Shown in pieces: positions 1 to 17,814 of a stretch of 17,814 bases of DNA. The notes beneath the pieces are model-generated. The model did not search any database. It worked only from the letters and a program-made list of their open reading frames with translations, and was not told the origin of the DNA. Origin of the DNA: a virus; the IMG/VR virus record IMGVR_UViG_3300045988_010373, positions 1-17,814 of that record. The stretch is one strand, 5' to 3'. Within the stretch, counting starts at the first letter, position 1, and every line of letters starts with the position of its first letter. Made by a program: the position numbers and the translations under genes.

Positions 1-22
1 TCCGGCGTGTTGTTTTGTGTCG

Positions 23-67
23 TTTTTTAAGCGCGTAGTTTTGTCGATTTTTTAAGCGCGTAGTTTT
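23..67 (+). repeat. Two 20-bp direct repeats TTTTTTAAGCGCGTAGTTTT (23-42 and 48-67) inside ITR-L, period 25 bp
   Basis: Exact 20/20 match read directly, separated by the 5 nt GTCGA. They are flanked by permuted GT-rich modules: CGGCGTGTTGT at 3-13 and 87-97, and TGTTTTGTGT at 11-20 and 73-82. Confidence 0.95.
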
Positions 68-107
68 CTCACTGTTTTGTGTTGTTCGGCGTGTTGTGGT
101 GGTGGTG

Positions 108-3088: not shown

Positions 3089-4549
3089 ATGAAAGAGCGT
3101 CGAACGGCGGCAACAGACGGCGCAACACTATTAACGGATGACGGCATGGAACCATTGACAGCCCGTGCCGTCATCCGCCTCACCATGCTCGACCATCATA
3201 CGCGCGTATGGTGTGCGCACGGATGGCAGGACATTAAACCCATAGCCGCCGAACTCTTGAAACGACTACCATTGCAATCGAACCCGAGCAAGGACGGCGC
3301 GTGGGGCACGTTCAATATTCGCGGCCATTTTTACAGTTTTCGTGTGCGCATGGGCGGCATTACCGTGGACTTTATCGACGTGCGCAATATTACGCGCGAC
3401 GATGGGTTGCATGTTTCACGTGAAACGTTCGGAGGAACCACCGACTTGGAAACCACCTGGAACATCGCGCAGGAATGCGACGCCCTGAACCTCAAGGGCA
3501 CCACCATAGCGTCAATGGCGATGACCGACTATATCGGCGGTGACTACGCTGGGTTCAAACGCCATTTTCCGCCATTGGATAGGGATGATTATCATCGGAT
3601 GCGCCCCGCCTACTATGGGGCGATAGTGTACAGCAAGCCGGGCGAATACCGGGATTGTAGAAGCTGGGATGTGAACAGTCTCTATCCGAGCATCATGCGC
3701 GACGCTCCAATGCCAACAGGCTCCCCCATATGGTACGACGGGGAATATCAATACGACGCCGACTATCCATTGCATATCGACGTTGTCGCGTTTGATGCAA
3801 AATTGAAGAACGGCAAAACGGCAACGCTCACCAATATCCTACCCGTATGGGGGTATGAGGGTGAACGCTTGGATAGCACGCTCGGCGTCATCACCATGCC
3901 GGTCACGGATGTGGATTGGGAAACGCTCACGGAAAACTATGACGTGCATGTGTGGGAGCATATTGGCGGCTGGAAATTCCGCAAATCACATGGACTCTAC
4001 TATAACTACGTGGATACATGGTTCCACGTGAAACAAACCGCAACCGGAGAGCGTAAGCAGATGGCAAAACTACTATTGAACTCATTGGTGGGGAAGTTTG
4101 GTGCCTCGCTCTACCGGCCCATGCTGCATCCGAAACCAACTGCGGACGGGGGTATAGATTTTACCGTGGATAAACCCGAGTCGGCCAACAGTCTGGCGTG
4201 GCTGCCGACCGCCGCCTATGTGAACGCTTATGGTCGGCAGGTATCATCCCGTGCGATGAACGCGAACACCGACCGCGTGATATATGCGGATACTGACGGC
4301 ATGATATTGGCTGGGCTGGACGCGCCTACGGGCGTCGAAACGGATGACCGGAAACTGGGTGCATGGAAAAACGACCACACCTATGAAAAATTACGCATTC
4401 TCGGCAATCGTAAATATTGCGGTGTGGAAACAGGCGGCGACACCATTATGCGGTTGAGCGGCGTGCATCGCGCCGCCCCCATCCCTTATGACGAGTTTCT
4501 GTCGGGGTCGCATCATCTCAATGACGATGGCCATAGTTTCATGCTATAA
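3089..4549 (+). CDS. Protein-primed family B DNA polymerase (phi29 gp2-like), compact 486 aa
   Basis: By-eye alignment to phi29 DNAP. WDVNSLYPS matches motif A (3668-3691). The DYPLHI block is present. KLLLNSLVGKFG matches motif B (4067-4102). YADTDG matches motif C (4283-4300). KLGAWKNDH...RKY matches the KxY region. ExoII-like NPSKDGAW is present. Confidence 0.95.
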   Translation: MKERRTAATDGATLLTDDGMEPLTARAVIRLTMLDHHTRVWCAHGWQDIKPIAAELLKRLPLQSNPSKDGAWGTFNIRGHFYSFRVRMGGITVDFIDVRNITRDDGLHVSRETFGGTTDLETTWNIAQECDALNLKGTTIASMAMTDYIGGDYAGFKRHFPPLDRDDYHRMRPAYYGAIVYSKPGEYRDCRSWDVNSLYPSIMRDAPMPTGSPIWYDGEYQYDADYPLHIDVVAFDAKLKNGKTATLTNILPVWGYEGERLDSTLGVITMPVTDVDWETLTENYDVHVWEHIGGWKFRKSHGLYYNYVDTWFHVKQTATGERKQMAKLLLNSLVGKFGASLYRPMLHPKPTADGGIDFTVDKPESANSLAWLPTAAYVNAYGRQVSSRAMNANTDRVIYADTDGMILAGLDAPTGVETDDRKLGAWKNDHTYEKLRILGNRKYCGVETGGDTIMRLSGVHRAAPIPYDEFLSGSHHLNDDGHSFML

Positions 4550-4550
4550 T
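4542..4550 (+). promoter_or_regulatory. Consensus extended -10 promoter TGCTATAAT overlapping the pol stop codon (candidate late promoter)
   Basis: Exact TGnTATAAT. The TAA stop of pol (4547-4549) is inside the hexamer. The predicted start, about 4557, heads the 187-nt non-coding region before the structural module. Confidence 0.45.
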
Positions 4551-4720
4551 ACCTAGTAGCGGGGTGTGCGTCCCAAGTCGATTCGATGGCCCGACCGGTA
4601 GGCAAATCGGTAAGGCGATTCGGTCGGATGTAGACGTGCGTAGCCAGCGCCCATTGACGGCGAGGGAACCCGCACAGCCTAGCAATCCGGCCCGGCAGCG
4701 TGATTGCTGCCGGGCCATTA
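4551..4720 (+). ncRNA. Candidate structured RNA or long structured 5' leader (function unknown)
   Basis: No plausible + strand ORF. By-eye helices: 4565-4574 with 4664-4676 (bulged); 4591-4597 with 4621-4627; 4605-4609 with 4616-4620; 4689-4699 with 4706-4716. No folding program was run. Confidence 0.3.
4689..4716 (+). terminator. Perfect 11-bp GC-rich hairpin GGCCCGGCAGC/GCTGCCGGGCC (loop GTGATT)
   Basis: Read directly. It is followed by ATTAACC, so there is no real U-tract, and only about 20 nt remain to ATG 4737. AGCAATC (4681-4687) can alternatively pair with GATTGCT (4702-4708). Confidence 0.4.
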
Positions 4721-4736
4721 ACCTTAAGGGGTGAAT

Positions 4737-5075
4737 ATGGACGACACCGAAAACAATGAGCCGGACACCACGCTCGACACCGAGCCGGACGCGCCCGCCG
4801 ACGAGAATACGCCGAACCCGGAGCCTGAAACGCAGGACGATAGTGAACCGGAGGACGCGGGCGATGACAAGACCGCCGACATGGCCGACCGGCTGAGCGC
4901 ATTGGAGGCGACAGTGGCGGAACTGTCGAAAACCATTGAGGCGATGCGCGACGCTGCGGCCGACCATGTGTTGAACGATGGCCCGGACGATGACAAGACG
5001 CCGGAATCGGCTGAACTGACCGACGATGACTATAACGGCACCTACAGCACGTTCGATGACCTCTATGAAGACTGA
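4737..5075 (+). CDS. Highly acidic protein, candidate scaffolding protein (112 aa)
   Basis: SD AAGGGG precedes ATG 4737. It lies immediately upstream of the major capsid gene, as phi29 gp7 does. It has D/E/P/T-rich disordered arms flanking a helical core (ADRLSALEATVAELSKTIEAMRDAAA). Confidence 0.5.
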   Translation: MDDTENNEPDTTLDTEPDAPADENTPNPEPETQDDSEPEDAGDDKTADMADRLSALEATVAELSKTIEAMRDAAADHVLNDGPDDDKTPESAELTDDDYNGTYSTFDDLYED

Positions 5076-5097: not shown

Positions 5098-6825
5098 ATG
5101 CCGACTACCCCCGTGGTGACGCCGAAGCAGCAGCTTCGCCCGCTCACTGAATTCAATAACGCCCAGATCCTGAACATAATTCGTAACGAGGCGTCCCCAG
5201 AGTACCAGCGGCGTATGCCCTCCGCCACTCAGATGAACATGGATAGGCAGATGGCCACGCTCATGTCGAGTACTCAGCTGAAGAACGAGTTTTACTCGGC
5301 GCTGGTCAATCGCATCGGCGGCACCTACGTCAACACGTGGAGGTGGAACAACCCGCTTGGTATTTTCCAGCGCGCCTCCCAGACGTTTGGCGACACGTGG
5401 CAGGAAATCGCCGTGGGTATGCCCCTCGCGCAGGTGTATGACCCGAACGCGGAATATTTGGGCGCGGACAACTTCCGCAAGTGGAAAATCGACGTGGATA
5501 GCCTCTATCATCGTTTGGACTTCGCCCACTGGTATCCGGCCACCACGGATGACAAGACGCTCCAGCGCGCGTTTACCTCTGAAACCGGTCTGGCCTCGCT
5601 GACTTCGCAGATTCTTACCTCGTGCTATAATGCGGCTGAAGTGGACTTGTTCGAGGCCATGTGTCACCAGTTTGTCGAGTATGCGAAGCTGGGCGGCTAT
5701 TGGCGCGTGCATATGGACGCTGACCTGAATGACATGGGGTCTACGGAGACGGACGCGCGTGACATGCTGCGACAGATTCGCGCGTGGGCCGATACGCTGA
5801 AATTCGTGTCCACTCGGTATAATGCGCGGCACATGCCGACGTTTGCCAAGCCGGATGAACTCGTATTGTTCTGCTCGCCTGAAGTTAAGTCGGCGCTTGA
5901 TGTGCAGGGTCTGGCCACGGTATTCCAGCGTACCGACGCCGAACCGACCATCGACCGGATTATCGTTATTCCGCAAGACCGGTTCGGCATGGATGGTGTG
6001 CAGGCCATTCTGACCACCGATAAATTCCTCATTGATATTCCGGTCATCAATGAGATGACCCAGCAGCCCAACCCGGTCAACATCAACTCGGTTAACCACT
6101 TCCTGCATGTGCAGCACATCATCTCGGTAAGCGGCTTCGCTCCCGCAGTGATGTTCTGGACAGGAGCAGGATCCACCGCCAACGTGGTGGCCCCGACCGG
6201 CACGACCGCCCAAAAACCGACATTCCAGCTTAAGCTGGCAATGTATGGTGGCGGCACGTCCACCCCGTCGAATGTGGCGCGTGGCGGCGCGGTGCAGGTC
6301 ACCGCCGATACGACCATCACCAATAACGGTACGGCCACATTCCGGTCGGACGCGGTAAGCTACACCATCGGTGACACGGTGAAGCCCAAGAGCGATTACA
6401 CCTACATCTCCCCGACCGGCGTGCTGGTGGTCGGTCTGGACGAGCCGAACACGGTTATTCCGGTGACGGCGGCCGCCTTGTACACCAACCCGGAGACGCC
6501 GGAGGTGCCGGGCACGGTATCCGCCGCGCTCGACGTGCCAGTGACCGGCGACGGCGTTATCGGGTTCAACCCGTCGATTATCGCGTCGATTGCCGTCAAC
6601 GTCTCGAACGTAACCACGGGCCATACGGTGCAGGCGACCGCGACGGCGACCATGATTGACGGGCGCAAGGCCGACGTGACCGCGCAGGCCGCGTGGACGT
6701 CCGGCACTCCGGCGAACGCCACGGTATCCGAGTCGGGCGTAGTGACCGGCGTCAAGGCGGGCACCTCTGACATCACGGCCACACTGTTCGGAGTGTCCGG
6801 TAAGAAGCAGGTAACCGTGTCCTAG
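5098..6825 (+). CDS. Major capsid protein (phi29 gp8-like) with C-terminal Ig-like Big_2 domain
   Basis: SD AGGAAAGGA. By-eye matches to phi29 gp8: NEFYSALVNRIG..NNPLGIFQ versus NDFITSLVDRIG..NNPLKKFK, and CYNAAEVDLFEAM versus IYNSAEVDEYEYM. The C-terminal roughly 75 aa (about 6595-6822) show a Big_2-like pattern (VQATATATMIDGRKADVTAQAAWTSG..ATVSESGVVTGVKAGTSDITATLFGVSG). Confidence 0.93.
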   Translation: MPTTPVVTPKQQLRPLTEFNNAQILNIIRNEASPEYQRRMPSATQMNMDRQMATLMSSTQLKNEFYSALVNRIGGTYVNTWRWNNPLGIFQRASQTFGDTWQEIAVGMPLAQVYDPNAEYLGADNFRKWKIDVDSLYHRLDFAHWYPATTDDKTLQRAFTSETGLASLTSQILTSCYNAAEVDLFEAMCHQFVEYAKLGGYWRVHMDADLNDMGSTETDARDMLRQIRAWADTLKFVSTRYNARHMPTFAKPDELVLFCSPEVKSALDVQGLATVFQRTDAEPTIDRIIVIPQDRFGMDGVQAILTTDKFLIDIPVINEMTQQPNPVNINSVNHFLHVQHIISVSGFAPAVMFWTGAGSTANVVAPTGTTAQKPTFQLKLAMYGGGTSTPSNVARGGAVQVTADTTITNNGTATFRSDAVSYTIGDTVKPKSDYTYISPTGVLVVGLDEPNTVIPVTAAALYTNPETPEVPGTVSAALDVPVTGDGVIGFNPSIIASIAVNVSNVTTGHTVQATATATMIDGRKADVTAQAAWTSGTPANATVSESGVVTGVKAGTSDITATLFGVSGKKQVTVS

Positions 6826-6865: not shown

Positions 6866-6929
6866 CGGTGTGATGCAAGTCAAGGCCCGGAGCGCAAACC
6901 ACGTGAGCGCTCCGGGCCTTGTCATACCG
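6866..6929 (+). terminator. Hairpin 2 after the capsid gene (15-bp perfect stem plus 8-bp basal helix)
   Basis: CAAGGCCCGGAGCGC (6881-6895) pairs with GCGCTCCGGGCCTTG (6907-6921), with the 11-nt loop AAACCACGTGA. CGGTGTGA (6866-6873) pairs with TCATACCG (6922-6929), including one G-U. The structure abuts SD GGAGG (6929-6933). Confidence 0.5.
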
Positions 6930-6937
6930 GAGGTTGG

Positions 6938-9265
6938 ATGATGATTGACGATGCGAACCCTTACGTGGAGTCCAATTTTTCGTGGGCGGAATGGACGCCC
7001 AACACGACACTGAAGCTCTGCCGCGTACCGTGGGATGCGTCCTATCGGGATGTGGTACGGTTTGTTTCACGTGAAACACAGGAAGAGTGGTTTAACAAAC
7101 TGGATGGCGTGGAATGCCGCCCGGCCACCATGCATATTTTTAACGCGCCCGCCCGCGTCGAACTACCGTTCAACGAGGCGTCGAATTGGAATTATCTCGT
7201 AGCTTATAACGATTACCCCGAACTTGAGGGGCCGCGCGCATGGTATTACTTCATCCAGCACGTCGAATACGTCAACGCACACTGTACCCAGTTGGTCTTG
7301 ATGCTGGACGTATGGCAGAGTTTCCAGCACGATATTACACTCGGCAGTTGTTACGTGACGCGCGGGCATATCGGCGTAGCCAACGAACACCAATGGGATG
7401 ACTACGGCCGCACGTATCTCGCTTTGCCCGAGGGGCTGGATACTGGCGCGGAAATGGTCACAACGAATCAGATGTATAAGAGTATTGTAAATGCCCAGCA
7501 CTATGACATTGATGGCGGTGGTATTGACTGGGTTGATTATGGGATAATTGTTGTATCAACTACCAATCTTACCGACTCTCCGGGCACTCAATCCAAGCCC
7601 TCTCTGCAAACGGCCACGGGTAGTATTTTTGAGGGTGCTACGGACGGTTGCGAGGTCTATTATTGCGACAGTCGTATGGCGTATGTTGCCAATATCATGG
7701 CGTTGGGCACGTTGTATCCGTGGGTTACTCAGGGTATTAGTGCTATTTATATGGTGCCAAAATTCCCGCAGGATTATATCGATAAATATGGTTCTGAGGT
7801 TACTAAAATTTACGGTTCAAACGTGGCGACGGATTATGGCAAAATCTATCAATTCACTACCGGTATTGATTCTGAGATGCGTTACGAGGATATCCTAAAC
7901 GTATCCAATTTTAGGAATAATTTTAACATTCCATCGCGCTATAGAAACCTGAAAAAACTCTATTGCTACCCCTATTGTGTCGTGGAATGCAGTAGCATGA
8001 ACGGTACTGTAATCACCTATAAGCCCGAGGACATTCAATCAAACAATCTCGTAATCAGGGAAACGTATTCTTTTGCGCCGAGCGGCACTAGAATCAATTT
8101 TTACATCCCCAATTACAACGAGGCTGGCGCGGAAACAATAAGCCCGCTGAATATCGACGGTAAGGGATATGGGCTGCCTATCGACGGCGGCGAAATGCTG
8201 GATGCAAGTTTCGGCATCACCAACCTACCGCATTTTAGCGTCGTCAACAATGGCGGCGCGTTGGCTATGGCGAATAGCGCGTATACGCGCGCCTATGCGG
8301 CGGATAGCGCCCAATGGACACGCGCCAAGGCGCAGGCGTCGGCCTACACCGATAGCTCCAATGCAATGTGGCAACGTGAATACGCCACACAGCAAACCAA
8401 TTTGTCCAACGCCAATAGAAGCGCGGCGAACGCCATCACCGCCAACAGTCTCAATCAGTCGCTGGCCATCACTCAGGCCAATACCGGCGCAATGGCGGAG
8501 CTGACGGTGCAGACCAATAACCTAAGCTCTGGGATTACAGGGCTGCAGCAGGTCGGGGGTGCATTCATGAGCGCGGCCAGCGGCAACGTGGCGGGAGTCA
8601 TCGGTGGCGCGATGGGCGCAATCGGCACCATGGCGCAGAACGGCGTTAATAATTATTCCACAATCAAGAGCGCAGCCATCGCCAACAACACGGCGGCGGC
8701 TAATACCGCGAACACCGTGGCAACCAATGCGGCGCAGACAACCCAAGCCAACACCTACGCTTCGGCCGCAACAGGGTTAAGCAATCAGCTTAGCGGCGTA
8801 ATAGCTCAGTCAAACCTTGGTCTAGCCAACTATGCGGCAAAGGGCGACTATCAGAACGCGATTGCGGGAATCAATGCGCAAGTGCAGCAAATGCAGTTGA
8901 CGCCGCCCACCATCTCGGGCGCGCTCGGCGGCGATATGTTTAACCTGAGTAACGGCATCATGGGTGTGTTGGTACGATTCAAAATGTGCGCCCCCAGCGC
9001 TCTGAGAGCCGCGGGCGAATACATGCTAAGGTACGGGTATTTTGTCCAGCGGTTCCTCACCCCGCCCGCCTCATTGGAATGCATGGAAAAATTCACGTTC
9101 TGGCAGATGCAGGAGGCATATGTGCGCGGCACGCTGCCGGAAGAATACCGCTTGACCATTAAGGGCATGTTTGAGCGTGGCGTCACCGTGTGGGACAAGC
9201 CCGAGTATATCGGTGTGACCGATTGGGCGGATAATAACCCGCTGCCGGGCATTGGCTACGAGTGA
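6938..9265 (+). CDS. Tail knob / distal tail tube protein (phi29 gp9-like), 775 aa
   Basis: SD GGAGG. By-eye matches to phi29 gp9: WYYFIQHVEYVN...LDVWQSF versus WFYAFVTELEFKN...IDVLQTW; LYCYPYCVVE versus LMMYPYCVTE; the C-terminal YGYFVQR...FERGVTVWD versus YGYKINR...FDNGITLWH; and a Gly/Ala-rich hydrophobic loop GGAFMSAASGNVAGVIGGAMGAIG. Confidence 0.9.
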   Translation: MMIDDANPYVESNFSWAEWTPNTTLKLCRVPWDASYRDVVRFVSRETQEEWFNKLDGVECRPATMHIFNAPARVELPFNEASNWNYLVAYNDYPELEGPRAWYYFIQHVEYVNAHCTQLVLMLDVWQSFQHDITLGSCYVTRGHIGVANEHQWDDYGRTYLALPEGLDTGAEMVTTNQMYKSIVNAQHYDIDGGGIDWVDYGIIVVSTTNLTDSPGTQSKPSLQTATGSIFEGATDGCEVYYCDSRMAYVANIMALGTLYPWVTQGISAIYMVPKFPQDYIDKYGSEVTKIYGSNVATDYGKIYQFTTGIDSEMRYEDILNVSNFRNNFNIPSRYRNLKKLYCYPYCVVECSSMNGTVITYKPEDIQSNNLVIRETYSFAPSGTRINFYIPNYNEAGAETISPLNIDGKGYGLPIDGGEMLDASFGITNLPHFSVVNNGGALAMANSAYTRAYAADSAQWTRAKAQASAYTDSSNAMWQREYATQQTNLSNANRSAANAITANSLNQSLAITQANTGAMAELTVQTNNLSSGITGLQQVGGAFMSAASGNVAGVIGGAMGAIGTMAQNGVNNYSTIKSAAIANNTAAANTANTVATNAAQTTQANTYASAATGLSNQLSGVIAQSNLGLANYAAKGDYQNAIAGINAQVQQMQLTPPTISGALGGDMFNLSNGIMGVLVRFKMCAPSALRAAGEYMLRYGYFVQRFLTPPASLECMEKFTFWQMQEAYVRGTLPEEYRLTIKGMFERGVTVWDKPEYIGVTDWADNNPLPGIGYE

Positions 9266-9277: not shown

Positions 9278-10228
9278 ATGAGTAGGTCTAAGAGGAATCG
9301 GGTTGGCGGCGCGTTGCACCCGCGTGGCAATTACGCCAAGGCACGCGCCGCCAGTCTCGACATGATGTATTATCATCTGCTGGCGGAATTGGCGCTGAAC
9401 CGGTTCAGCTGGCGTGGGTTGCCGCCCACCGTAGACGAGCGATGGATGGAAATGTGCCTATGCGAGTATGGCTGTGCGCTGTTTTTCGAGGACAAGCGTA
9501 TAGGCCGGTTCCTCGTGACACAAGCCGGTTATCAAGGCCGATTGAACGTGTATAATAATCCCACGCGCTTTGAACCGGTTGGCGTCAACTATCATTACAA
9601 GCAATTGCGGGCGGGCCGTGAGTGTATTCCGATCTGGGATAACCGGATGCGTATGAGCTTCAAGGACATTCTATGGCAGTATGCGCGACGGTTGGCGGAT
9701 ATCGACAAGGCGTATGATGTGAACTTGGAGAGCCTGAAACTGCCGACTATCATCACTGCCGACCCGCGTACCAAACTCACCGTACAGAACATGCTGCAGC
9801 AGCGGCAGGACGGCCAAGACTATATTATCGGCTACGACTCGTTGGATCCCGGTAGTATGTTCCAACCGTGGCCGAACACCACACCATACTTGCTGGACAA
9901 GTTTATCCAGCAAAAGGCGCAGGTCACCAATGAGGTGCTGGGATATTTGGGCATCCAGTCCAGCGGTACGGAGAAAAAAGAGCGTCTCATCTCCGACGAA
10001 GTGGCGCAAGCCAACGAGAAGACAGACGTGTTCCGTTTGAGTTTCCTTAAGGCACGGCAGGCGGCGGCAACGGAAATCAACAGGTTGTGGCCACAATTGA
10101 ACGTGTGGGTTGAATATGCCGACGCGCAGAGCGCCGGCGTGCCCAACGCGCTCGATTCCAGCGCCTCGGGTACGACGGATATCGATATGCCCGCCTCGTA
10201 TGACGCGGGTATCGGAGGTGTATTATAA
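9278..10228 (+). CDS. Portal (head-tail connector) protein, phi29 gp10-like, 316 aa
   Basis: By-eye matches to phi29 gp10: the basic N-terminus MSRSKRNR versus MARKRSN; FSWRGLPPTVDERWME versus FEWENLPPTINPSFLE; LGIQSSGTEKKERLISDEV versus LGIKNANLEKKERMVTDEV. The size also matches (316 versus 309 aa). Confidence 0.93.
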   Translation: MSRSKRNRVGGALHPRGNYAKARAASLDMMYYHLLAELALNRFSWRGLPPTVDERWMEMCLCEYGCALFFEDKRIGRFLVTQAGYQGRLNVYNNPTRFEPVGVNYHYKQLRAGRECIPIWDNRMRMSFKDILWQYARRLADIDKAYDVNLESLKLPTIITADPRTKLTVQNMLQQRQDGQDYIIGYDSLDPGSMFQPWPNTTPYLLDKFIQQKAQVTNEVLGYLGIQSSGTEKKERLISDEVAQANEKTDVFRLSFLKARQAAATEINRLWPQLNVWVEYADAQSAGVPNALDSSASGTTDIDMPASYDAGIGGVL

Positions 10229-12088: not shown

Positions 12089-13537
12089 ATGTCAACCACA
12101 CAGCACACCTCTCACTACAATCTGCCGACGTTTGGCGACAACCCGAACGACCGCCCGTCGTGGCGCGGTGACTTCACCGACGCGATGACGAAAATCGATA
12201 ATCAGATGTACGCGAACGCGACCAACATCACCACGGCGACGGCGGCGGCGAACAACGCGACCGCGGCGGCAGGCGAGGCCAAGAAGGAGGCTGAGACTGC
12301 GACAAGCCTATCGCAGGCCAACAAGAACGATATTGCCGACTTGGATGGCTATTTCGGTAAGCTCGGCGTCACGTCGGAATCGACCGCGCAGCAGCTTATG
12401 AACACCATCAACGGTAAGGCGGAGGAAACCGAGCTGACCTCGCTTAAAGGCACGGTATCCTCGCTATCCAGCACAGTCAATACCAAGGCGAACACCTCCG
12501 ACGTGTATACCAAGGGTCAGGCGGACACGACGTTTACCAAGCAGGGCGGATATTCCGGTACCGCGCAGCAGTTGAACCAGCGTATTCAAGCGTTGGAAGA
12601 GGAAGCGCCGCAGGACGCATTGCCCATCTGTTTGTGCATCGGGGATAGCTACGCCAATTCCTCCAGCACCGTTGATGCGGACGGCACGGACGCGACCAAG
12701 TGGCCGACACAGCTCCGTAACATCATCGGTAACGATTATCAGGTGAAAAACTATGCCGTAACCGGGGCTGGGTTCAATGTGTCGGGAAAGACGTTCACCG
12801 ACCAGATCAACAACGCCTACAGCGCCTCGGCCATCGATAACGATAACGTGGCGATTATCATCATCGGTGGCGGGCGTAACGACGTTGCCACCACCTCCCA
12901 GATGAAGTCGTATGCAGATTCGACGTTCTCCAATGCGCGCGCGAAGTTCCCGAAGGCTCGAATCATCGCAGTGCCGATGCTCTGGCATAACGCGGGCATG
13001 GATATGTACGGCAGGCAGAAGGCCGCGGGCGTTGCGGAGGCGGCAGCCACGAACGGTGTGGAAAACGTCGATTGGGCGTGGACGTGGAACATCGGCAACG
13101 ATTCCAATTTCAGCAGCGGCGACATCCACCCCAATGCGAACGGCGCGAAGGTCATCGCGTCCTATATGGCGTCCGCCATCCGGGGCACCTACACCGGACG
13201 CTACGAGGCGGCCACCGTCACGTCATCCAACGGCCGCGTACGCAGCAACGTCGTAGCCTCGGGCGGCATGGTATTCGCCTCGCTCTGGGGCAACGATGGC
13301 ACCCAAAATTCCGACCTGGCCGCAGGCGTCACGTTCCCGGGCTGGGCTAGGATTGCTGCGGGTTCCGATCCCGACCAGTTCCGCGCATGGGGCGCAGGCT
13401 TGACCAATTCCGGTTCTACAGTGAGCGGCTGGCTGTTGACCGGTGTTGATTCGGACACGTCCGGTGCTCCAAAGATTACCTACCACGGCAGTACGGCGGG
13501 GGCCAACAATGGCTGTTTCGTGTGCTATCCGTGGTAA
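12089..13537 (+). CDS. Tail fibre/spike protein paralog 2 with SGNH (GDSL-type) hydrolase domain (482 aa)
   Basis: SD AAGGAG. The shared N-terminal anchor is MSTTQHTSHYNLPTFGDNPNDRPSWRGDFTDAMTKIDNQM. It has an Ala-rich coiled segment and a fibre motif YTKGQADTTFTKQGGY. SGNH blocks are present: CIGDSYAN (GDS at 12641-12649), IIIGGGRNDV, and GDIHPNANG (DxxH). Confidence 0.75.
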   Translation: MSTTQHTSHYNLPTFGDNPNDRPSWRGDFTDAMTKIDNQMYANATNITTATAAANNATAAAGEAKKEAETATSLSQANKNDIADLDGYFGKLGVTSESTAQQLMNTINGKAEETELTSLKGTVSSLSSTVNTKANTSDVYTKGQADTTFTKQGGYSGTAQQLNQRIQALEEEAPQDALPICLCIGDSYANSSSTVDADGTDATKWPTQLRNIIGNDYQVKNYAVTGAGFNVSGKTFTDQINNAYSASAIDNDNVAIIIIGGGRNDVATTSQMKSYADSTFSNARAKFPKARIIAVPMLWHNAGMDMYGRQKAAGVAEAAATNGVENVDWAWTWNIGNDSNFSSGDIHPNANGAKVIASYMASAIRGTYTGRYEAATVTSSNGRVRSNVVASGGMVFASLWGNDGTQNSDLAAGVTFPGWARIAAGSDPDQFRAWGAGLTNSGSTVSGWLLTGVDSDTSGAPKITYHGSTAGANNGCFVCYPW

Positions 13538-14807: not shown

Positions 14808-14816
14808 CACCATGAT

Positions 14817-14840
14817 AAACCGGTAGATATCTACCGGTTT
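14817..14840 (+). terminator. Rho-independent-type terminator (perfect 24-bp palindrome AAACCGGTAGAT/ATCTACCGGTTT)
   Basis: Read directly. The 3' arm ends in TTT and is followed by GTCATTGTT. It lies 10 nt after the hydrolase stop. Confidence 0.6.
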
Positions 14841-14852
14841 GTCATTGTTATA

Positions 14853-14861
14853 TGGTATGAT
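14853..14861 (+). promoter_or_regulatory. Extended -10-like box TGGTATGAT upstream of ATG 14869 (leaderless candidate for the ATPase)
   Basis: TATGAT at 14856-14861, then the 7-nt spacer GAATAGT, then ATG 14869. There is no SD before any of the candidate starts. Confidence 0.3.
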
Positions 14862-15966
14862 GAATAGTATGGAGAGGCTGTTAGGCGAGGACGATTATTA
14901 CGATTATGGGCGCGTACTGTCCTATCACGCGCCTTGGATGTTCGTCATCGGCGCGCGCGGCCTCGGCAAAACCTATGGCGCTAAAAAACTGGTCATCGGT
15001 GACTGGATTAAAAAACGCTGGCAATTCATCTACCTACGCCGCACGGCAGAAGAGCAGAAGAATAAGGGCACGTGGTTTGCGGATATCGCGGAACAATACC
15101 CGGAATTAGAATTTAGAGTGTCCGGCAATCAGGCAGAATGTCATTGGCTGGATGATAGGGACGCCACCACCGACAAGCACGGTAAAAAACGACCTACATG
15201 GCATATCATGGGGTACTTCATCGCCCTCAGTCAGGCCGGACAGGTGAAATCAGTCGCCTACCCCAAGGTACGAACGATAATCTTTGATGAAATCTTCCCC
15301 GACAACATGCGCTATCTGGGCGGGGAAGTGACCGCGCTTGAGGAATTCTATAACACGGTTGACCGCTGGAATGATAGGGTTAGGGTCATCATGTGCAGCA
15401 ATGCCGTAACCCTCGCTAACCCGTACTTTAGCGCGTTTAATATCAACCTGAAACCGCAGTTGGATAATCACACGCAATACCAACGCTATTGCGACGGGTT
15501 TATTATGGTGGAATTAGCGGATTATGGCGGCTTCAGCGCCAAGGTCGCTACATCCAAGTTCGGGCAATTTTTACGCAAATATGATGAGAATTATGCGAAT
15601 TATGCAATCAATAATGATTTTAAGGATAACGCTAATACTCTCATTAGTGATTTTAACAACGCCGGTTATGCGTTCACACTGAGAACAACTGAATATGGTA
15701 TTTTCAACGTGTATCAGCAATTAAGCGACGCCGACGAGGTGCTATATATCATTACCAAAAAACAGCCTAAAATCACGCGTGATTTTACGTTTGATTATCG
15801 GTTGGTGGATAATGATTGTATGATGCTCAAACGTTCGGATGATATGACGCAGAAAATATTAAACGCCTATCGCGTCGGAAGACTACGGTTTGAAACGCCT
15901 CAGATTAAGGCTGAATTTAGTATGATTCTTGGCGGCTTGTTGCAACAGTCAGGCATAAGAAAGTGA
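14857..15966 (+). CDS. DNA encapsidation (packaging) ATPase, phi29 gp16-like
   Basis: By-eye alignment to phi29 gp16: LSYHAPWMFVIGARGLGKTYG versus LSYDRILNFVIGARGIGKSYA (Walker A, 14950-14973); QFIYLRR versus QFIYVRR; TIIFDE (Walker B, 15277-15291); RVRVIMCSNAVTLANPYF versus RVRCICLSNAVSVVNPYF. The start is ambiguous (ATG 14857, 14860 or 14869). The ORF-track TTG 14839 lies inside the terminator. Confidence 0.93.
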   Translation: MMNSMERLLGEDDYYDYGRVLSYHAPWMFVIGARGLGKTYGAKKLVIGDWIKKRWQFIYLRRTAEEQKNKGTWFADIAEQYPELEFRVSGNQAECHWLDDRDATTDKHGKKRPTWHIMGYFIALSQAGQVKSVAYPKVRTIIFDEIFPDNMRYLGGEVTALEEFYNTVDRWNDRVRVIMCSNAVTLANPYFSAFNINLKPQLDNHTQYQRYCDGFIMVELADYGGFSAKVATSKFGQFLRKYDENYANYAINNDFKDNANTLISDFNNAGYAFTLRTTEYGIFNVYQQLSDADEVLYIITKKQPKITRDFTFDYRLVDNDCMMLKRSDDMTQKILNAYRVGRLRFETPQIKAEFSMILGGLLQQSGIRK

Positions 15967-15975
15967 GGAAAATTT

Positions 15976-16341
15976 ATGCCAATCCATGAATTAATCGTCG
16001 TTGGCATCGTATTTTTATTGGTGCTAATCGACTATGTTACCGGCGTGGTTAATGCGATTATGCACGGTGAACTATCCAGCGAGAGAATGCGGCAGGGGCT
16101 CGGGCACAAGTTCGCATATCTGGCGGTAATCTGCGTGGCACTAATCGTAGAGTACGGTTCGGATTACATCGACTTGGGAATCGAACTACCCGTATTCATC
16201 CCCGTGTGCGTGGGCATCTGCCTGATTGAGATTACCTCAATCATGGAAAATTGCGTAAAAATCAACCCCGAACTATCCGGCTCGAATATCCTGAATATTT
16301 TCAACATTAATAGAAAAGAAAACAATGGTAAAGAAGATTAA
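15976..16341 (+). CDS. Holin (phage_holin_4 / LL-H-type pattern), 121 aa
   Basis: SD GAGGAAA. There are three hydrophobic segments. The motif LIDYVTGVVNAIMHGELSSERMRQGLGHKF and the C-terminal IEITSIMENCVKINP fit the D..TG...A....SS....G..K ... E..SI.EN pattern of that holin family. It lies directly upstream of, and overlaps, the endolysin. AT-richer than the genome average. Confidence 0.8.
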   Translation: MPIHELIVVGIVFLLVLIDYVTGVVNAIMHGELSSERMRQGLGHKFAYLAVICVALIVEYGSDYIDLGIELPVFIPVCVGICLIEITSIMENCVKINPELSGSNILNIFNINRKENNGKED

Positions 16342-17377
16342 GGCAATCGCCTATAGTGTGATTGCGGCAATCGCCGCCCTACTGCTGGCATTTTCGCCAA
16401 CCGCTAGCGCGGCAGACATGATAGACGTATCCAGTTGGCAAACCGGCATCAACGTCACCACGTCCGGCGCGCAGATTGTGGTCTCCAAGGCAACCGAGGG
16501 CATTGGATACGTCAACCCGGATTGCGACCGCGTAGTGCAGGACGCCTTAGCGGCGGGACAGGGTGTAGGCGTCTACCACTTCGCCCACACCGAAAACAAC
16601 GCGCTGAGCGAAGCCAATTACTTTATCGACAACACGCGCGGCTACATCGGCAAAGGTATCGTGCCTATTCTGGACTGGGAGCCGTCCGCTCCTTGGGATA
16701 CCGGTTGGGCACTCACATGGCTCCGCACAGTAGAAGCCGCATGGGGCACCAAGCCTATCATTTATATGAATCAGTCCACGGAAAATTCCTACGACTGGAC
16801 GGCGGTAGTCGCCAGGAATTATGGGCTATGGATTGCCGCATACACCTTGGGTTACACGCCAATCTACGGGTTCAACCCGCCCGCAGCGCAACCCACGTTG
16901 CATCATTGGCCGTTTGCGGTCGCATGGCAATACACCTCGACCGGCTACGTTGGCGACTGGGGTGGCGCGCTCGACTTGAGCGTGGTCTATGGTGACCTGA
17001 ATACATGGTATGCGTATGCAGGTAGCGGACAGGTTGCCCCCGCACCCGCGCCCGCGCCAGCACCGCAGCCCAGCACGCCGGACACCACGTGCGACACCAA
17101 TTGCGTGGTCATCCAGTCTGGCCAGTACGTTTCAATGTTCTGGGCTGACTGGTGGAACGTCAGCGTGCCCAGCGGCAACCCGTCCGTAGTGTACCCCGGT
17201 GACAAGGTATGCCACAATGGCGGCGGTGCCGTTGCAACATCGCGGACATATGTGGTGCAGGCGGGCGACACATTGAGCGGCATCGCCGCTTGGCTCGGAG
17301 TCAGCATGTATGATATCACAGGATATTCCTCGGGTAATATGAATCTCATTTATCCCGGAGAAGTCTTGCACTACTGA
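16325..17377 (+). CDS. Endolysin: N-terminal Sec-type signal peptide, GH25 muramidase domain, Pro-Ala linker, C-terminal LysM
   Basis: MVKKIKAIAYSVIAAIAALLLAFSPTASA/AD has a basic n-region, a hydrophobic core and an AxA site. GH25 pattern: IDVSSWQ..INV, VVSKATEG.GYVNP, GVYHFA. Linker: APAPAPAPAPQP. LysM: YVVQAGDTLSGIAAWLGVSMYDITGYSSGNMNLIYPGEVL (about 17243-17374). The start overlaps the holin 3' end by 17 nt. Confidence 0.88.
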   Translation: MVKKIKAIAYSVIAAIAALLLAFSPTASAADMIDVSSWQTGINVTTSGAQIVVSKATEGIGYVNPDCDRVVQDALAAGQGVGVYHFAHTENNALSEANYFIDNTRGYIGKGIVPILDWEPSAPWDTGWALTWLRTVEAAWGTKPIIYMNQSTENSYDWTAVVARNYGLWIAAYTLGYTPIYGFNPPAAQPTLHHWPFAVAWQYTSTGYVGDWGGALDLSVVYGDLNTWYAYAGSGQVAPAPAPAPAPQPSTPDTTCDTNCVVIQSGQYVSMFWADWWNVSVPSGNPSVVYPGDKVCHNGGGAVATSRTYVVQAGDTLSGIAAWLGVSMYDITGYSSGNMNLIYPGEVLHY

Positions 17378-17707: not shown

Positions 17708-17747
17708 CACCACCACCACAACACGCCGAACAACACAAAACAGTGAG

Positions 17748-17792
17748 AAAACTACGCGCTTAAAAAATCGACAAAACTACGCGCTTAAAAAA
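17748..17792 (-). repeat. Mirror copies of the two 20-bp direct repeats inside ITR-R
   Basis: Follows from the perfect ITR identity (17748-17767 and 17773-17792). Confidence 0.95.
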
Positions 17793-17814
17793 CGACACAA
17801 AACAACACGCCGGA

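What the first reader, a model, noticed from the sequence alone, without database searches (positions are those of the whole stretch)
4542..4736. 187-nt GC-rich structured non-coding region behind a consensus extended -10 at the replication/structural boundary
A perfect TGCTATAAT overlaps the pol stop. It is followed by the longest non-coding stretch in the genome, which has no credible ORF. I can see several nested complementary segments: 4565-4574/4664-4676 enclosing 4591-4597/4621-4627 and 4605-4609/4616-4620, then a perfect 11-bp hairpin at 4689-4716. The hairpin loop and 3' arm (GATTGCT, 4702-4708) can alternatively pair with AGCAATC (4681-4687). Only about 20 nt separate the hairpin from the scaffold gene start, so the region is not simply a terminator followed by a promoter. 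Options are a stable ncRNA, a long regulatory leader or attenuator for the late operon, or a packaging RNA. phi29-type gp16 ATPases dock on a pRNA ring, and to my knowledge it is unresolved whether non-Bacillus relatives have one.
Basis: partly seen in the sequence, partly recalled or inferred. Interest (0 to 1): 0.65.

Follow-up and report, generated by a model that had tools for sequence, protein, structure and literature searches.

The report
Candidate packaging RNA in gut phage
The gap between the polymerase and scaffold genes of this small phi29-like gut phage encodes a highly conserved folded RNA whose shape closely matches the "prohead RNA" that phi29 needs to pack its DNA. That RNA has so far been reported only from Bacillus phages.

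Summary
Window 4550-4736 is a 187-nt non-coding gap behind a conserved extended -10 promoter (TGCTATAAT, 4542-4550). It folds far better than shuffles (z = -3.98).

About 170 related human-gut contigs carry the same gap. Conservation jumps from 50% to 95% at the predicted transcription start. That exceeds the flanking genes (84-86%) and shows no codon periodicity.

The fold has two parts:
- Domain I (4559-4683) is a long 5'/3' arm and a three-way junction.
- Domain II (4689-4716) is an 11-bp hairpin whose stem covaries and whose loop GUGAUU is almost invariant.

Domain I matches phi29 pRNA element for element, including GGC/GCC complementarity between two loops.

In a sister clade (Bifidobacterium phages BD811P1-3, BP1 and about 75 contigs), the same locus is a separate gene with its own promoter, terminator and a second promoter. 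There 29 of 50 pairs covary. The loop-loop pair changed at least 9 times (G:C, G:U, A:U) and is never A:C.

Against membership, Rfam's pRNA model and my own clade models find no cross-clade match. No RNA or prohead data exist.

Best reading is a pRNA-like packaging RNA (confidence about 0.6). This would be a new variant of a known kind.

The parts
4521..4526 (+). -35-like hexamer ATGACG, 18 nt upstream of the -10 box
   Evidence: Promoter scan. It lies inside the pol coding sequence.
4542..4550 (+). Extended -10 promoter TGCTATAAT, overlapping the pol stop codon (TAA 4547-4549)
   Evidence: It is 98% conserved over 80 relatives. The same box sits at the pol stop in BD811-like and BadAztec Bifidobacterium phages.
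4551..4558 (+). Variable spacer ending at the predicted transcription start (about 4557-4559)
   Evidence: Identity over 4551-4557 is only 50%, then jumps to 95%. The first paired base, G4559, is 8 nt after the -10 box. The spacing is the same in the sister clade.
4559..4589 (+). 5' strand of the long outer arm (A-like). Segments are GCGGG, UGUGCG, UCC, GUCG and UCGAUGG, separated by small bulges and internal loops
   Evidence: MFE and consensus folds. Pair counts are and coordinates.
4591..4627 (+). First branch of the three-way junction. It comprises the C-like helix CCGACCG/CGGUCGG (4591-4597/4621-4627), the 5'-side-only internal loop GUAGGCA (4598-4604, CE-like, invariant GGC at 4601-4603), the E-like helix AAUCG/CGAUU (4605-4609/4616-4620) and the loop GUAAGG (4610-4615)
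   Evidence: The C helix is 99.7% paired and the E helix 97.2% paired over 100 variants.
4628..4637 (+). Junction strand AUGUAGACGU, nearly invariant
   Evidence: Invariant columns.
4638..4650 (+). Second branch, the D-like hairpin GCGU-AGCCA-GCGC. The 5-nt loop carries an invariant GCC (4643-4645) complementary to the GGC at 4601-4603
   Evidence: The closing pair covaries: U-A 57, C-G 22, U-G 21, none unpaired. GGC/GCC is kept in 99.7% of cells. It is unchanged in 73 further gut-metagenome contigs.
4651..4683 (+). 3' strand of the outer arm: CCAUUGA, CGGC, GGA, CGCACA and CCUAGC
4684..4688 (+). Short single-stranded linker between the two domains
   Evidence: Its length varies among relatives.
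4689..4716 (+). Domain II: an 11-bp GC hairpin with the 6-nt loop GUGAUU (4700-4705)
   Evidence: Five of 11 stem pairs show compensatory change and 98.5% of cells are paired. The loop is nearly invariant here. GUGAUU, or rarely GCGAUU, is also the terminator-hairpin loop in the sister clade, where a U-tract follows.
4717..4736 (+). 20-nt tail AUUAACCUUAAGGGGUGAAU with the scaffold-gene ribosome-binding site (AAGGGG). The U-tract is weak and there is no room for a second promoter
   Evidence: The terminator scan does not call this site.
9278..10228 (+). Connector (phi29 gp10-type) gene, the presumed docking partner. Its N-terminus MSRSKRNRVGG... is strongly basic
   Evidence: Pfam PF05352, E = 4e-42. 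Translation.
14839..15966 (+). Encapsidation ATPase (phi29 gp16-type) gene, the presumed partner of the outer arm
   Evidence: Pfam PF05894, E = 5.6e-43.

Best explanation
The gap encodes a small non-coding RNA of about 155-160 nt that works like phi29 prohead RNA (pRNA).

**Shown at sequence level**
- Host RNA polymerase would start about 7 nt after the extended -10 box at 4542-4550.
- The first 125 nt or so fold into a long arm made from the 5' and 3' ends, topped by a three-way junction.
- One branch carries a one-sided internal loop and a small hairpin. The other branch is a hairpin with a 5-nt loop.
- A covarying GC hairpin with a nearly fixed GUGAUU loop closes the RNA.

**Inferred**
- The GGC of the internal loop pairs with the GCC of the hairpin loop of a neighbouring molecule.
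- The protruding arms would dock the gp16-type ATPase that pumps the terminal-protein-capped genome into the head. The RNA would leave afterwards.
- In this clade the 3' hairpin is a poor terminator and no second promoter follows. The late structural genes are therefore probably transcribed by read-through. The RNA would arise by partial termination or by processing of the 5' end of the late transcript.
For: **Context**
- The window is a complete 17.8-kb phi29-type genome. It has inverted terminal repeats of at least 90 nt, a protein-primed type B polymerase, a phi29-type capsid protein, a gp9-like tail knob, a gp10-type connector and a gp16-type ATPase.
- The connector N-terminus is strongly basic. 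From my own knowledge, this resembles the RKR N-terminal segment of phi29 gp10 that binds pRNA.

**A real, selected plus-strand RNA**
- Fold z = -3.98.
- Domain I is 94.8% identical across relatives. Pol is 83.9%, scaffold 86.0% and MCP 85.7%. The spacer before the predicted start is 49.6%.
- 97.9% of cells are paired, 9 pairs are compensatory, and 0 of 500 shuffles reach these values.
- Many G-U pairs (for example U-G 68 / C-G 32, and G-U 88) would be C-A mismatches on the other strand.

**A separate gene in the sister clade**
- In about 80 variants, including the isolates BD811P1-3 and BP1, the locus reads as follows: TGCTATAAT at the pol stop, an RNA of about 150 nt, a GC hairpin with a GUGAUU loop, a U-tract, a second extended -10 box (CATGATATAAT), the RBS and the scaffold gene.
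- In that clade 29 of 50 pairs show compensatory change, 92.5% of cells are paired, and 0 of 500 shuffles reach these values.

**Architecture compared with phi29 pRNA (Rfam consensus)**

| Element | phi29 | BD811-like clade | This window |
|---|---|---|---|
| C helix | 9 bp with 1-nt bulge | 9 bp with 1-nt bulge | 7 bp |
| CE loop (5' side only) | 9 nt | 7 nt | 7 nt (6 in some relatives) |
| E helix | 4 bp | 4 bp | 5 bp |
| E loop | 6 nt | 7 nt | 6 nt |
| C-to-D junction | UUU | AUUU | 10 nt |
| D helix | 6 bp | 6-7 bp | 4 bp |
| D loop | 5 nt | 5 nt | 5 nt |

- A descriptor with these ranges hits phi29 pRNA, the window gap, BD811P2, BD811P3 and BP1. It hits only 2 of 1000 dinucleotide shuffles of the gap. 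It finds one other weak site in the whole window on both strands.

**Loop-loop complementarity**
- In phi29 and the BD811-like clade the pairing uses the last 4 nt of the CE loop and D-loop nt 2-5. In the window's own sequence the GGC lies one base further from the E helix.
- phi29 has AACC/GGUU. The BD811-like clade has (G/A)CCA/UGG(C/U). The window has GGC/GCC.
- In the BD811-like clade the variable pair is G:C 60, G:U 9, A:U 8 and A:C 0.
- That pair changed state at least 9 times on a neighbour-joining tree.
- The GG/CC core matches the rule reported for all known pRNAs (PMC12670572).

**Similar RNAs next to packaging genes elsewhere**
- Eggerthella phage LE1-1 has GGGG/CCCC loops just upstream of the encapsidation gene.
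- Clostridium_AQ phages CI55P1, CI461P1 and CI130P1 have UACCA/UGGUA loops between pol and the packaging ATPase.
Against: - Rfam RF00044 gives no match to the window gap or to the BD811P2 gap, even at E <= 10. It scores 145 bits on phi29 itself.
- Covariance models built from the BD811-like clade, full length and junction only, do not find the window RNA or phi29 pRNA above chance. Homology between clades therefore rests on synteny, promoter position, the shared GUGAUU loop and architecture.
- In the window clade the loop-loop pairing is only 3 G-C pairs and never varies, so it carries no covariation signal of its own. Three complementary bases between two loops of one sequence are not rare by chance.
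- I tuned the descriptor ranges after seeing these RNAs, so its false-positive rates are optimistic.
- The position (mid-genome, same strand as all genes) and the 3' domain differ from phi29.
- BadAztec, Arthrobacter, Curtobacterium and Microbacterium phages have structured gaps at the same place, but I could not fit them to the pRNA scheme.
- There is no transcript, prohead or packaging evidence.
Confidence: 0.6

Rival explanations
1. It is a stable trans-acting small RNA with a different job, such as timing the early-to-late switch, binding a phage or host protein, or base-pairing with host or phage mRNAs. On this reading the pRNA-like shape is convergent or coincidental, and the loop-loop pairing is an intramolecular tertiary contact.
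For: - It has its own promoter and terminator in the sister clade.
- It lies exactly at the early/late boundary.
- There are invariant single-stranded stretches: the junction AUGUAGACGU, and the GUGAUU loop shared by two clades whose polymerases are only about 35% identical. That pattern is typical of a protein- or RNA-binding site.
- No covariance-model link to known pRNA was found.
Against: - It does not explain why helix lengths, the one-sided loop, the loop sizes and the position of the complementary tetrads match pRNA so closely.
- It does not explain why comparable RNAs sit directly upstream of the packaging ATPase in LE1-1 and the CI phages.
- No target complementarity was found or tested.
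Confidence: 0.2
2. It is a cis-acting 5' leader of the late operon. It would act as an attenuator, as a processive-antitermination element (like the put RNAs of phage HK022), or as a stabilising 5' structure that controls read-through into, or translation of, the scaffold and capsid genes.
For: - In the window clade only 20 nt separate the hairpin from the scaffold ATG, and there is no second promoter. Late transcription probably has to pass through the element.
- The hairpin lacks a good U-tract.
- An alternative 7-bp pairing with the hairpin's loop and 3' arm exists in this window.
Against: - The alternative pairing is complete in only 40 of 100 relatives. Two of its positions mismatch in 44-56% of them without compensation.
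- In the sister clade a canonical terminator with a U-tract and a fresh extended -10 promoter separate the RNA from the late genes. There the conserved fold cannot act as their leader.
- There is no Rfam cis-regulatory match.
Confidence: 0.13
3. It is merely the intrinsic terminator of the early (replication) operon plus GC-rich spacer DNA, or a DNA-level signal, with no RNA function beyond termination.
For: - The 3' hairpin resembles sRNA terminators in weak Rfam alignments.
- The sister clade has a U-tract after it.
Against: - The 125 nt upstream of the hairpin are the most conserved stretch of the region: 94.8%, above all flanking coding sequence.
- They carry structure-preserving and compensatory substitutions in two clades.
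- A conserved promoter points into them.
- G-U pairs make the fold favour the plus strand.
Confidence: 0.04

Closest known systems
phi29 prohead/packaging RNA (pRNA; Rfam RF00044), known from phi29, PZA, B103, M2/Nf, SF5, GA-1 and other Bacillus phages
   Same: - It is encoded by a phi29-type phage with a gp10-type connector and a gp16-type ATPase.
- It has a promoter of its own.
- It has two domains.
- Domain I is about 120 nt, with the 5' and 3' ends paired into a long arm and a three-way junction.
- The C helix carries a one-sided CE loop, there is a short E hairpin with a 6-7-nt loop, and the D hairpin has a 5-nt loop.
- CE and D loops are complementary through a GG/CC core.
   Different: - There is no detectable sequence or covariance-model similarity.
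- The gene is mid-genome, between pol and scaffold and co-oriented with all genes. In phi29 it lies at genome positions 147-320, next to early promoter A1 and on the same strand as the early genes there.
- The kissing core is 3 G-C pairs with the strands swapped (GG in CE, CC in D).
- The C-to-D junction is 10 nt, not UUU.
- The 3-nt bulge of the arm is on the 3' strand.
- Domain II is a single terminator-like hairpin with a conserved GUGAUU loop.
- The host is a gut bacterium related to Bifidobacterium-phage hosts, not Bacillus.
The unannotated gap RNA of Bifidobacterium phages BD811P1-3, BP1 and about 75 gut viral contigs (found here; not described in the papers I could search)
   Same: - Same synteny (pol, gap, scaffold, MCP).
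- Same TGCTATAAT box at the pol stop, with the same spacing to the first helix.
- Same junction layout.
- Same GUGAUU loop on the 3' hairpin.
   Different: - The polymerases are only 35% identical and the capsid proteins 37%.
- The RNA sequences cannot be aligned by covariance model.
- The outer arm is shorter, with an extra small hairpin.
- The kissing tetrad is (G/A)CCA/UGG(C/U).
- There is a true U-tract terminator and a second promoter before the scaffold gene.
Terminator-bearing bacterial and phage small RNAs
   Same: It is a short transcript with its own sigma-70-type promoter, ending in a GC hairpin. Weak Rfam alignments of the sister-clade RNA to sRNA 3' ends reflect this.
   Different: There is no family match. 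The conserved body is a three-way junction rather than a seed region, and no target is known.
Phage HK022 put antiterminator RNAs (from my own knowledge; not tested here)
   Same: It is a structured RNA transcribed immediately downstream of a promoter and upstream of a terminator-like hairpin and of late genes.
   Different: - put RNAs are two stem-loops of about 70 nt that act in cis on the transcribing polymerase.
- In the sister clade this element ends at an efficient-looking terminator followed by a new promoter. That does not fit an antiterminator.

Membership tests
phi29 pRNA (Rfam RF00044 Phage_pRNA) | Scores at or above the gathering threshold (100 bits) of the RF00044 covariance model | tested here: not met
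   There is no RF00044 match at E <= 10 in the whole window, in 4540-4745 alone, or in the BD811P2 gap. The positive control, phi29, scores 145.4 bits.
phi29 pRNA (Rfam RF00044 Phage_pRNA) | Encoded by a phage with a phi29-type packaging apparatus (gp10 connector, gp16 ATPase, protein-primed genome) | tested here: met
   Pfam PF05352 (4e-42), PF05894 (5.6e-43), PF03175 and PF25622. Inverted terminal repeats of at least 90 nt.
phi29 pRNA (Rfam RF00044 Phage_pRNA) | Domain I architecture: the 5'/3' ends form the A helix; a three-way junction; a C helix with a 5'-side-only CE loop; a short E hairpin; a D hairpin with a roughly 5-nt loop abutting the A helix | tested here: met
   MFE and consensus folds, pair counts and coordinates. 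A descriptor derived from the RF00044 consensus hits the gap. It hits 2 of 1000 shuffles and one other weak site in the genome. The descriptor ranges were widened after inspection.
phi29 pRNA (Rfam RF00044 Phage_pRNA) | [quoted passage not shown] | tested here: inconclusive
   GGC (4601-4603) and GCC (4643-4645) are complementary and kept in 99.7% of cells. They never vary within the window clade, so there is no covariation signal there. In the syntenic RNA of the sister clade the tetrad covaries: G:C 60, G:U 9, A:U 8, A:C 0, with at least 9 changes on a tree.
phi29 pRNA (Rfam RF00044 Phage_pRNA) | Transcribed as a discrete small RNA from its own (early) promoter | tested here: inconclusive
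   There is a conserved extended -10 promoter, and conservation starts at the predicted start. In this clade no clear terminator or second promoter follows. In the sister clade both are present. No transcript data are available.
phi29 pRNA (Rfam RF00044 Phage_pRNA) | Gene position close to the left genome end, as in phi29 | tested here: not met
   The gene is at 4559-4716 of 17,814, between pol and scaffold, on the same strand as all genes. phi29 pRNA lies at genome positions 147-320.
phi29 pRNA (Rfam RF00044 Phage_pRNA) | Forms a ring on the prohead connector and is required for DNA packaging | not testable with these tools
   This needs prohead RNA extraction, RNase sensitivity of packaging, and cryo-EM. 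The only supporting hint is the basic connector N-terminus MSRSKRNR.
Rho-independent (intrinsic) terminator | GC-rich hairpin immediately followed by a U-tract | tested here: not met
   The hairpin 4689-4716 is followed by AUUAACCUU, and the scan does not call it. Sister-clade copies do have AUUUUAUUUU.
Transcription attenuator or riboswitch-type leader | Conserved mutually exclusive pairings (anti-terminator against terminator), or a match to a known cis-regulatory family | tested here: not met
   The alternative pairing is complete in 40 of 100 variants without compensation. There is no Rfam cis-regulatory hit.
tRNA / tmRNA | Cloverleaf detected by ARAGORN | tested here: not met
   ARAGORN finds 0 genes in the window.

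The most novel reading that the evidence does not exclude
RNA-dependent packaging motors are not a peculiarity of Bacillus phi29-like phages. They may be ancestral and widespread in the whole phi29-like assemblage. On this reading the window RNA, the BD811/BP1 RNA and the candidates in Eggerthella phage LE1-1 and Clostridium_AQ phages CI55P1, CI461P1 and CI130P1 are strongly diverged pRNA orthologues. Their sequence has drifted beyond covariance-model reach.
Probability: 0.45. Interest if true: 0.88.

Novelty: new variant of a known kind. Interest (0 to 1): 0.8.

Why it matters
- **An open question becomes testable.** pRNA is the only known RNA component of a viral DNA-packaging motor. A 2016 review (PMC5066667), a 2024 review (PMC11476376) and a 2025 Infernal survey (PMC12670572) all treat it as confined to Bacillus phages. 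Why these phages need an RNA, and whether their many relatives do, is unresolved.
- **Material is available.** This candidate family comes from abundant human-gut phages, with about 170 natural sequence variants of the window's RNA and about 80 of the sister clade's. The sister clade includes cultured phages with cultivable hosts: BD811P1-3 on B. dentium and BP1 on B. pseudocatenulatum.
- **Consequences if confirmed.**
  - It would show how far a pRNA can diverge while keeping its function.
  - It would supply new GC-rich junction scaffolds for RNA nanotechnology.
  - It would mean that annotation of small podovirus genomes routinely misses an essential gene.

Tried and rejected
- **Known RNA families.** ARAGORN found nothing. 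Rfam at E <= 10 gave only chance hits, on the whole window and on the gap alone.
- **Close phage relatives.** Megablast of the window against 50,697 phage records found no match.
- **Single-protein locus searches.** BD811P3 and BadAztec1 polymerases found nothing new in IMG/VR.
- **Broad capsid alignment.** A 9-way capsid alignment was too diverse to search with. A 4-way alignment worked.
- **Cross-clade covariance models.**
  - R1 (full RNA, BD811-like clade) found no window hit with default filters.
  - With filters off, R1 gave only a local 9-bit match to the hairpin loop (4692-4713, E = 1.2) among equally good chance hits.
  - R2 (junction only) found neither the window RNA, phi29 pRNA nor LE1-1.
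  - I therefore do not claim covariance-model homology.
- **Coding reading.** The 56-aa ORF 4564-4734 is rejected. It shows no codon periodicity, and indels among relatives break its frame.
- **Host search.** A conserved 21-mer searched against 185,579 species genomes gave two chance matches in unrelated MAGs.
- **Metagenome search for new loop variants.** 73 more human-gut contigs all keep GGC/GCC unchanged, so no covariation was gained.
- **Other phages at the same locus.** I could not fit the BadAztec, Arthrobacter, Curtobacterium, Microbacterium, Glutamicibacter and Rhizobium phage gaps to the pRNA scheme.
- **Literature.** Searches for pRNA outside Bacillus phages found none.
Full report
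**1. What the window is**

All large ORFs are on the plus strand. Pfam identifies the following:
- A protein-primed type B DNA polymerase (3089-4549).
- A phi29-type major capsid protein (5098-6825).
- A gp9-like tail knob (6938-9265).
- A gp10-type connector (9278-10228).
- A gp16-type encapsidation ATPase (14839-15966).
- A GH25/LysM lysin (16325-17377).

The two ends are perfect inverted repeats of at least 90 nt. The window is therefore a complete 17.8-kb linear phi29-like genome.

No phage record is close at the DNA level. By protein, the nearest isolates are Bifidobacterium phages: capsid 37-43% identical and polymerase 34-36%. More than 110 close relatives are in IMG/VR, and 73 are in human-gut metagenome assemblies. 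The small ORF after the gap (4737-5075) encodes a very acidic protein in the scaffold position.

**2.

- TGCTATAAT is at 4542-4550 across the pol stop codon. A -35-like ATGACG lies 18 nt upstream.
- The gap 4550-4736 is 187 nt and 61% GC.
- The plus strand folds at -87.4 kcal/mol, z = -3.98. The minus strand is weaker, z = -2.9.
- It is the longest internal gap. Only the right terminal 203 nt is longer.

**3. It is under selection as an RNA, not as protein or spacer**

I aligned 100 distinct versions of the gap. Mean identity to the window across 80 relatives is shown below.

| Segment | Identity |
|---|---|
| pol | 0.839 |
| -10 box | 0.981 |
| Spacer after the -10 box (4551-4557) | 0.496 |
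| 4558-4682 (domain I) | 0.948 |
| 3' hairpin | 0.81 |
| scaffold | 0.860 |
| capsid | 0.857 |

Conservation switches on where a transcript from this promoter should begin. It exceeds that of the neighbouring genes.

In the frame of the only ORF (56 aa, GTG 4564) the three codon positions are equally conserved (0.90/0.93/0.89). In pol they are 0.91/0.94/0.67. One-base indels among relatives break that frame.

On a curated structure, 97.9% of 5,494 cells are standard pairs. With partners slid by 1-3 columns the figure is 25-42%. Nine pairs show compensatory change, and none of 500 shuffles reaches the observed measures.

Most variation in domain I is G-U to G-C or A-U. Several pairs are predominantly G-U, which would be C-A mismatches on the other strand. 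That favours a plus-strand RNA.

The 3' hairpin stem covaries at 5 of 11 pairs, while its loop GUGAUU is nearly invariant.

**4. Anatomy (coordinates)**

- **Outer arm:** GCGGG / UGUGCG / UCC / GUCG / UCGAUGG (4559-4589), pairing with CCAUUGA / CGGC / GGA / CGCACA / CCUAGC (4651-4683).
- **Three-way junction:** one unpaired base leads into the branches.
- **Branch 1:**
  - Helix CCGACCG/CGGUCGG (4591-4597/4621-4627).
  - An internal loop on the 5' side only, GUAGGCA (4598-4604).
  - Helix AAUCG/CGAUU.
  - Loop GUAAGG (4610-4615).
- **Junction strand:** AUGUAGACGU (4628-4637), nearly invariant.
- **Branch 2:** GCGU-AGCCA-GCGC (4638-4650). Its closing pair covaries: U-A 57, C-G 22, U-G 21.
- **Linker:** 5 nt.
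- **Domain II:** the hairpin 4689-4716.
- **Tail:** 20 nt containing the RBS.

The GGC of the internal loop (4601-4603) and the GCC of the branch-2 loop (4643-4645) are complementary and essentially invariant. The loop bases around them vary.

**5. The same locus in other phages**

All Bifidobacterium phage isolates I fetched have an unannotated gap of 180-230 nt between pol and the scaffold-position gene.

The BD811/BP1-like clade has 80 distinct gaps, from isolates and IMG/VR. In it the layout is explicit:
- TGCTATAAT at the pol stop.
- An 8-nt variable spacer.
- About 150 nt of RNA.
- A GC hairpin whose loop is again GUGAUU (rarely GCGAUU).
- A U-tract (AUUUUAUUUU).
- A second extended -10 box (CATGATATAAT).
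- A leader of about 45 nt, then AAGGAG and the scaffold ATG.

There the RNA is a self-contained transcription unit and cannot be the late leader.

Its structure is well supported on 55 representatives:
- 92.5% of cells are paired.
- 29 of 50 pairs show compensatory change.
- 0 of 500 shuffles reach these values.
- All 6 pairs of the second-branch helix covary and are 100% paired.

**6. Comparison with phi29 pRNA**

I took the Rfam RF00044 consensus from its alignment to phi29 itself, 145 bits. The table compares it with the two gut-phage clades.

| Element | phi29 | BD811-like clade | This window |
|---|---|---|---|
| Arm-to-C junction | 1 nt | 5 nt | 1 nt |
| C helix | 5+4 bp, 1-nt bulge | 9 bp, 1-nt bulge | 7 bp |
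| CE loop (5' side only) | 9 nt | 7 nt | 7 nt (6 in some relatives) |
| E helix | 4 bp | 4 bp | 5 bp |
| E loop | 6 nt (UUGAGU) | 7 nt (UGAGAAU) | 6 nt (GUAAGG) |
| C-to-D junction | UUU | AUUU | 10 nt |
| D helix | 6 bp | 6-7 bp | 4 bp |
| D loop | 5 nt (UGGUU) | 5 nt (GUGGC/U) | 5 nt (AGCCA) |

In phi29 the A helix 3' strand follows the D hairpin directly.

A descriptor written from these ranges finds phi29 pRNA, the window gap, BD811P2, BD811P3 and BP1. It also hits one site in Eggerthella phage LE1-1. It matches 2 of 1000 dinucleotide shuffles of the window gap and 11 of 1000 of the BD811P2 gap. It matches one other weak site in the window on both strands. I set the ranges after seeing the RNAs, so these rates are optimistic.

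In phi29 the last four bases of the CE loop (AACC) pair with D-loop bases 2-5 (GGUU) of the next molecule (PMC5066667; sequence).

At the same positions the BD811-like clade has (G/A)CCA and UGG(C/U). Over 77 distinct sequences the variable pair is G:C 60, G:U 9, A:U 8 and A:C 0. On a neighbour-joining tree built without these columns, the pair changed state at least 9 times. This is direct comparative evidence for a loop-loop base pair.

The window clade has GGC in CE and GCC in D. That is the same kind of complementarity with the strands swapped. In the window's own sequence the GGC lies one base further from the E helix, so the register is shifted by one. It is only 3 bp and does not vary, so it carries no covariation signal of its own. 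Four variants with D loop UUUGCCGA and CE GGCAAA could extend the pairing to 5-6 bp.

A 2025 survey reports that all known pRNAs use a GG/CC core plus 0-2 A/U pairs (PMC12670572). All three patterns fit that rule.

**8. Further hints**

- The connector N-terminus is MSRSKRNRVGGALHPRGNYAKARAAS. From my own knowledge, this resembles the basic N-terminal segment of phi29 gp10 that binds pRNA.
- Eggerthella phage LE1-1 has a promoter-proximal RNA immediately upstream of its encapsidation gene. It has a 9-bp C-like helix and loops GGGGCA and CCCCCU.
- Clostridium_AQ phages CI55P1, CI461P1 and CI130P1 have, between pol and the packaging ATPase:
  - A TGCTACAAT/TGCTATAAT promoter.
  - A three-way junction.
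  - Loops AUACCA and CUGGUAA, giving UACCA/UGGUA.
- Arthrobacter, Curtobacterium, Microbacterium, Glutamicibacter and Rhizobium phages also have gaps of 155-195 nt upstream of the scaffold-position gene. Each has a long arm and a strong 3' hairpin. I could not resolve their folds.

**9. What speaks against membership**

- RF00044 does not match the window or the BD811P2 gap, even at E <= 10.
- Covariance models from the BD811-like clade, full length (R1) and junction only (R2), do not find the window RNA, phi29 pRNA or LE1-1 above chance.
- The gene is mid-genome rather than at the left end.
- Domain II is a single hairpin.
- In this clade no good terminator or second promoter follows. The RNA would have to arise by leaky termination or processing, and the late genes by read-through.
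- There is no experimental evidence for a transcript or for prohead association.

**10. Rivals**

- **Attenuator.** The proposed alternative pairing is intact in only 40 of 100 relatives, without compensation. The sister clade's layout also contradicts it.
- **Bare terminator or spacer.** This is contradicted by the conservation and covariation of the 125 nt upstream of the hairpin.
- **Trans-acting sRNA with another function.** This cannot be excluded and is the main rival. It does not explain the detailed match to pRNA, or the proximity to packaging genes in other lineages.

**11. Literature**

A 2016 review, a 2024 review and a 2025 Infernal survey describe pRNA only in Bacillus phages. The 2024 review calls it a unique feature of these phages. 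Searches combining pRNA with Bifidobacterium phage, or with the other phi29-like families, found nothing further. The library is incomplete, so prior description elsewhere cannot be ruled out.

**12. Verdict**

This is a real, strongly selected, independently promoted structured RNA. It is most likely a diverged functional counterpart of phi29 pRNA (confidence about 0.6). I file it as working like a pRNA, not as a member of RF00044.

Noticed in passing
window 1-90 and 17725-17814: The two ends are perfect inverted terminal repeats of at least 90 nt, beginning TCCGGCGTGTTGTTTTGTGTCG. The window is therefore a complete linear, protein-primed genome. These repeats are far longer than the 6-nt repeat of phi29.
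   Followed up: partly
window 6876-6926: An 18-bp GC-rich hairpin (CAAGGCCCGGAGCGC...GCGCUCCGGGCCUUG) lies in the 112-nt gap between the capsid and tail-knob genes. It gave spurious miRNA hits on both strands. It may be a terminator or an RNA-stability element.
   Followed up: no
window 14812-14845: A perfect 15-bp palindrome (ATGATAAACCGGTAGATATCTACCGGTTTGTCAT) sits right at the listed TTG start of the gp16-type ATPase ORF. It could be an operator or a terminator. In LE1-1 and the CI phages, the pRNA-like candidate occupies the position just upstream of the ATPase gene.
   Followed up: no
window 7650-8100 and 15450-16050: Two low-GC islands (0.39-0.41, against 0.55 for the genome) lie inside the tail-knob gene and at the 3' end of the ATPase gene. 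They may reflect mosaic acquisition.
   Followed up: no
L168 (Eggerthella phage LE1-1, MW679025) 12523-12733: An unannotated 209-nt gap lies upstream of a small ORF and the encapsidation gene. It folds into a pRNA-like three-way junction with a 9-bp C-like helix, CE-like loop GGGGCA, E-like loop GUGAAA and D-like loop CCCCCU, followed by a strong 3' hairpin.
   Followed up: partly
L251 (Clostridium phage CI55P1) 4748-4897; L255 and L256 2953-3101: A 150-nt gap lies between pol and the packaging ATPase. It has a TGCTACAAT/TGCTATAAT promoter, a three-way junction, loops AUACCA and CUGGUAA (UACCA/UGGUA, 5 bp; 4 bp in CI461P1 and CI130P1) and a U-rich tail. It is a low-GC pRNA-like candidate without a domain II.
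   Followed up: partly
L166 4933-5106; L167 3933-4128; L169 3968-4146; L252 4768-4931; L254 5588-5744: Arthrobacter, Curtobacterium, Microbacterium, Glutamicibacter and Rhizobium phi29-like phages all have unannotated gaps of 155-195 nt just upstream of the scaffold-position gene. Each has a long closing arm and a very strong 3' hairpin. E-like hairpin loops UUGAAU (Mendel) and UUGAUU (Voltaire) resemble phi29's UUGAGU. The folds are unresolved.
   Followed up: partly
L159 5779-5956 and L165 3836-4014 (Bifidobacterium phages BadAztec1, BadAargau2): The honeybee-gut Bifidobacterium phages have the same promoter-plus-structured-gap layout, and the arm shows compensatory changes between the two phages. 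The hairpin CGUA-UUAAGU-UACG is preceded by AACC, the same tetrad as phi29's CE loop. I found no matching GGUU loop.
   Followed up: partly
window 4700-4705, and the BD811-like loci (for example L162 about 3945-3950): The 3' hairpin loop is GUGAUU in two clades whose polymerases are only about 35% identical, while the stems covary freely. The loop has an unexplained sequence-specific role, possibly a protein-binding site or a tertiary contact.
   Followed up: no
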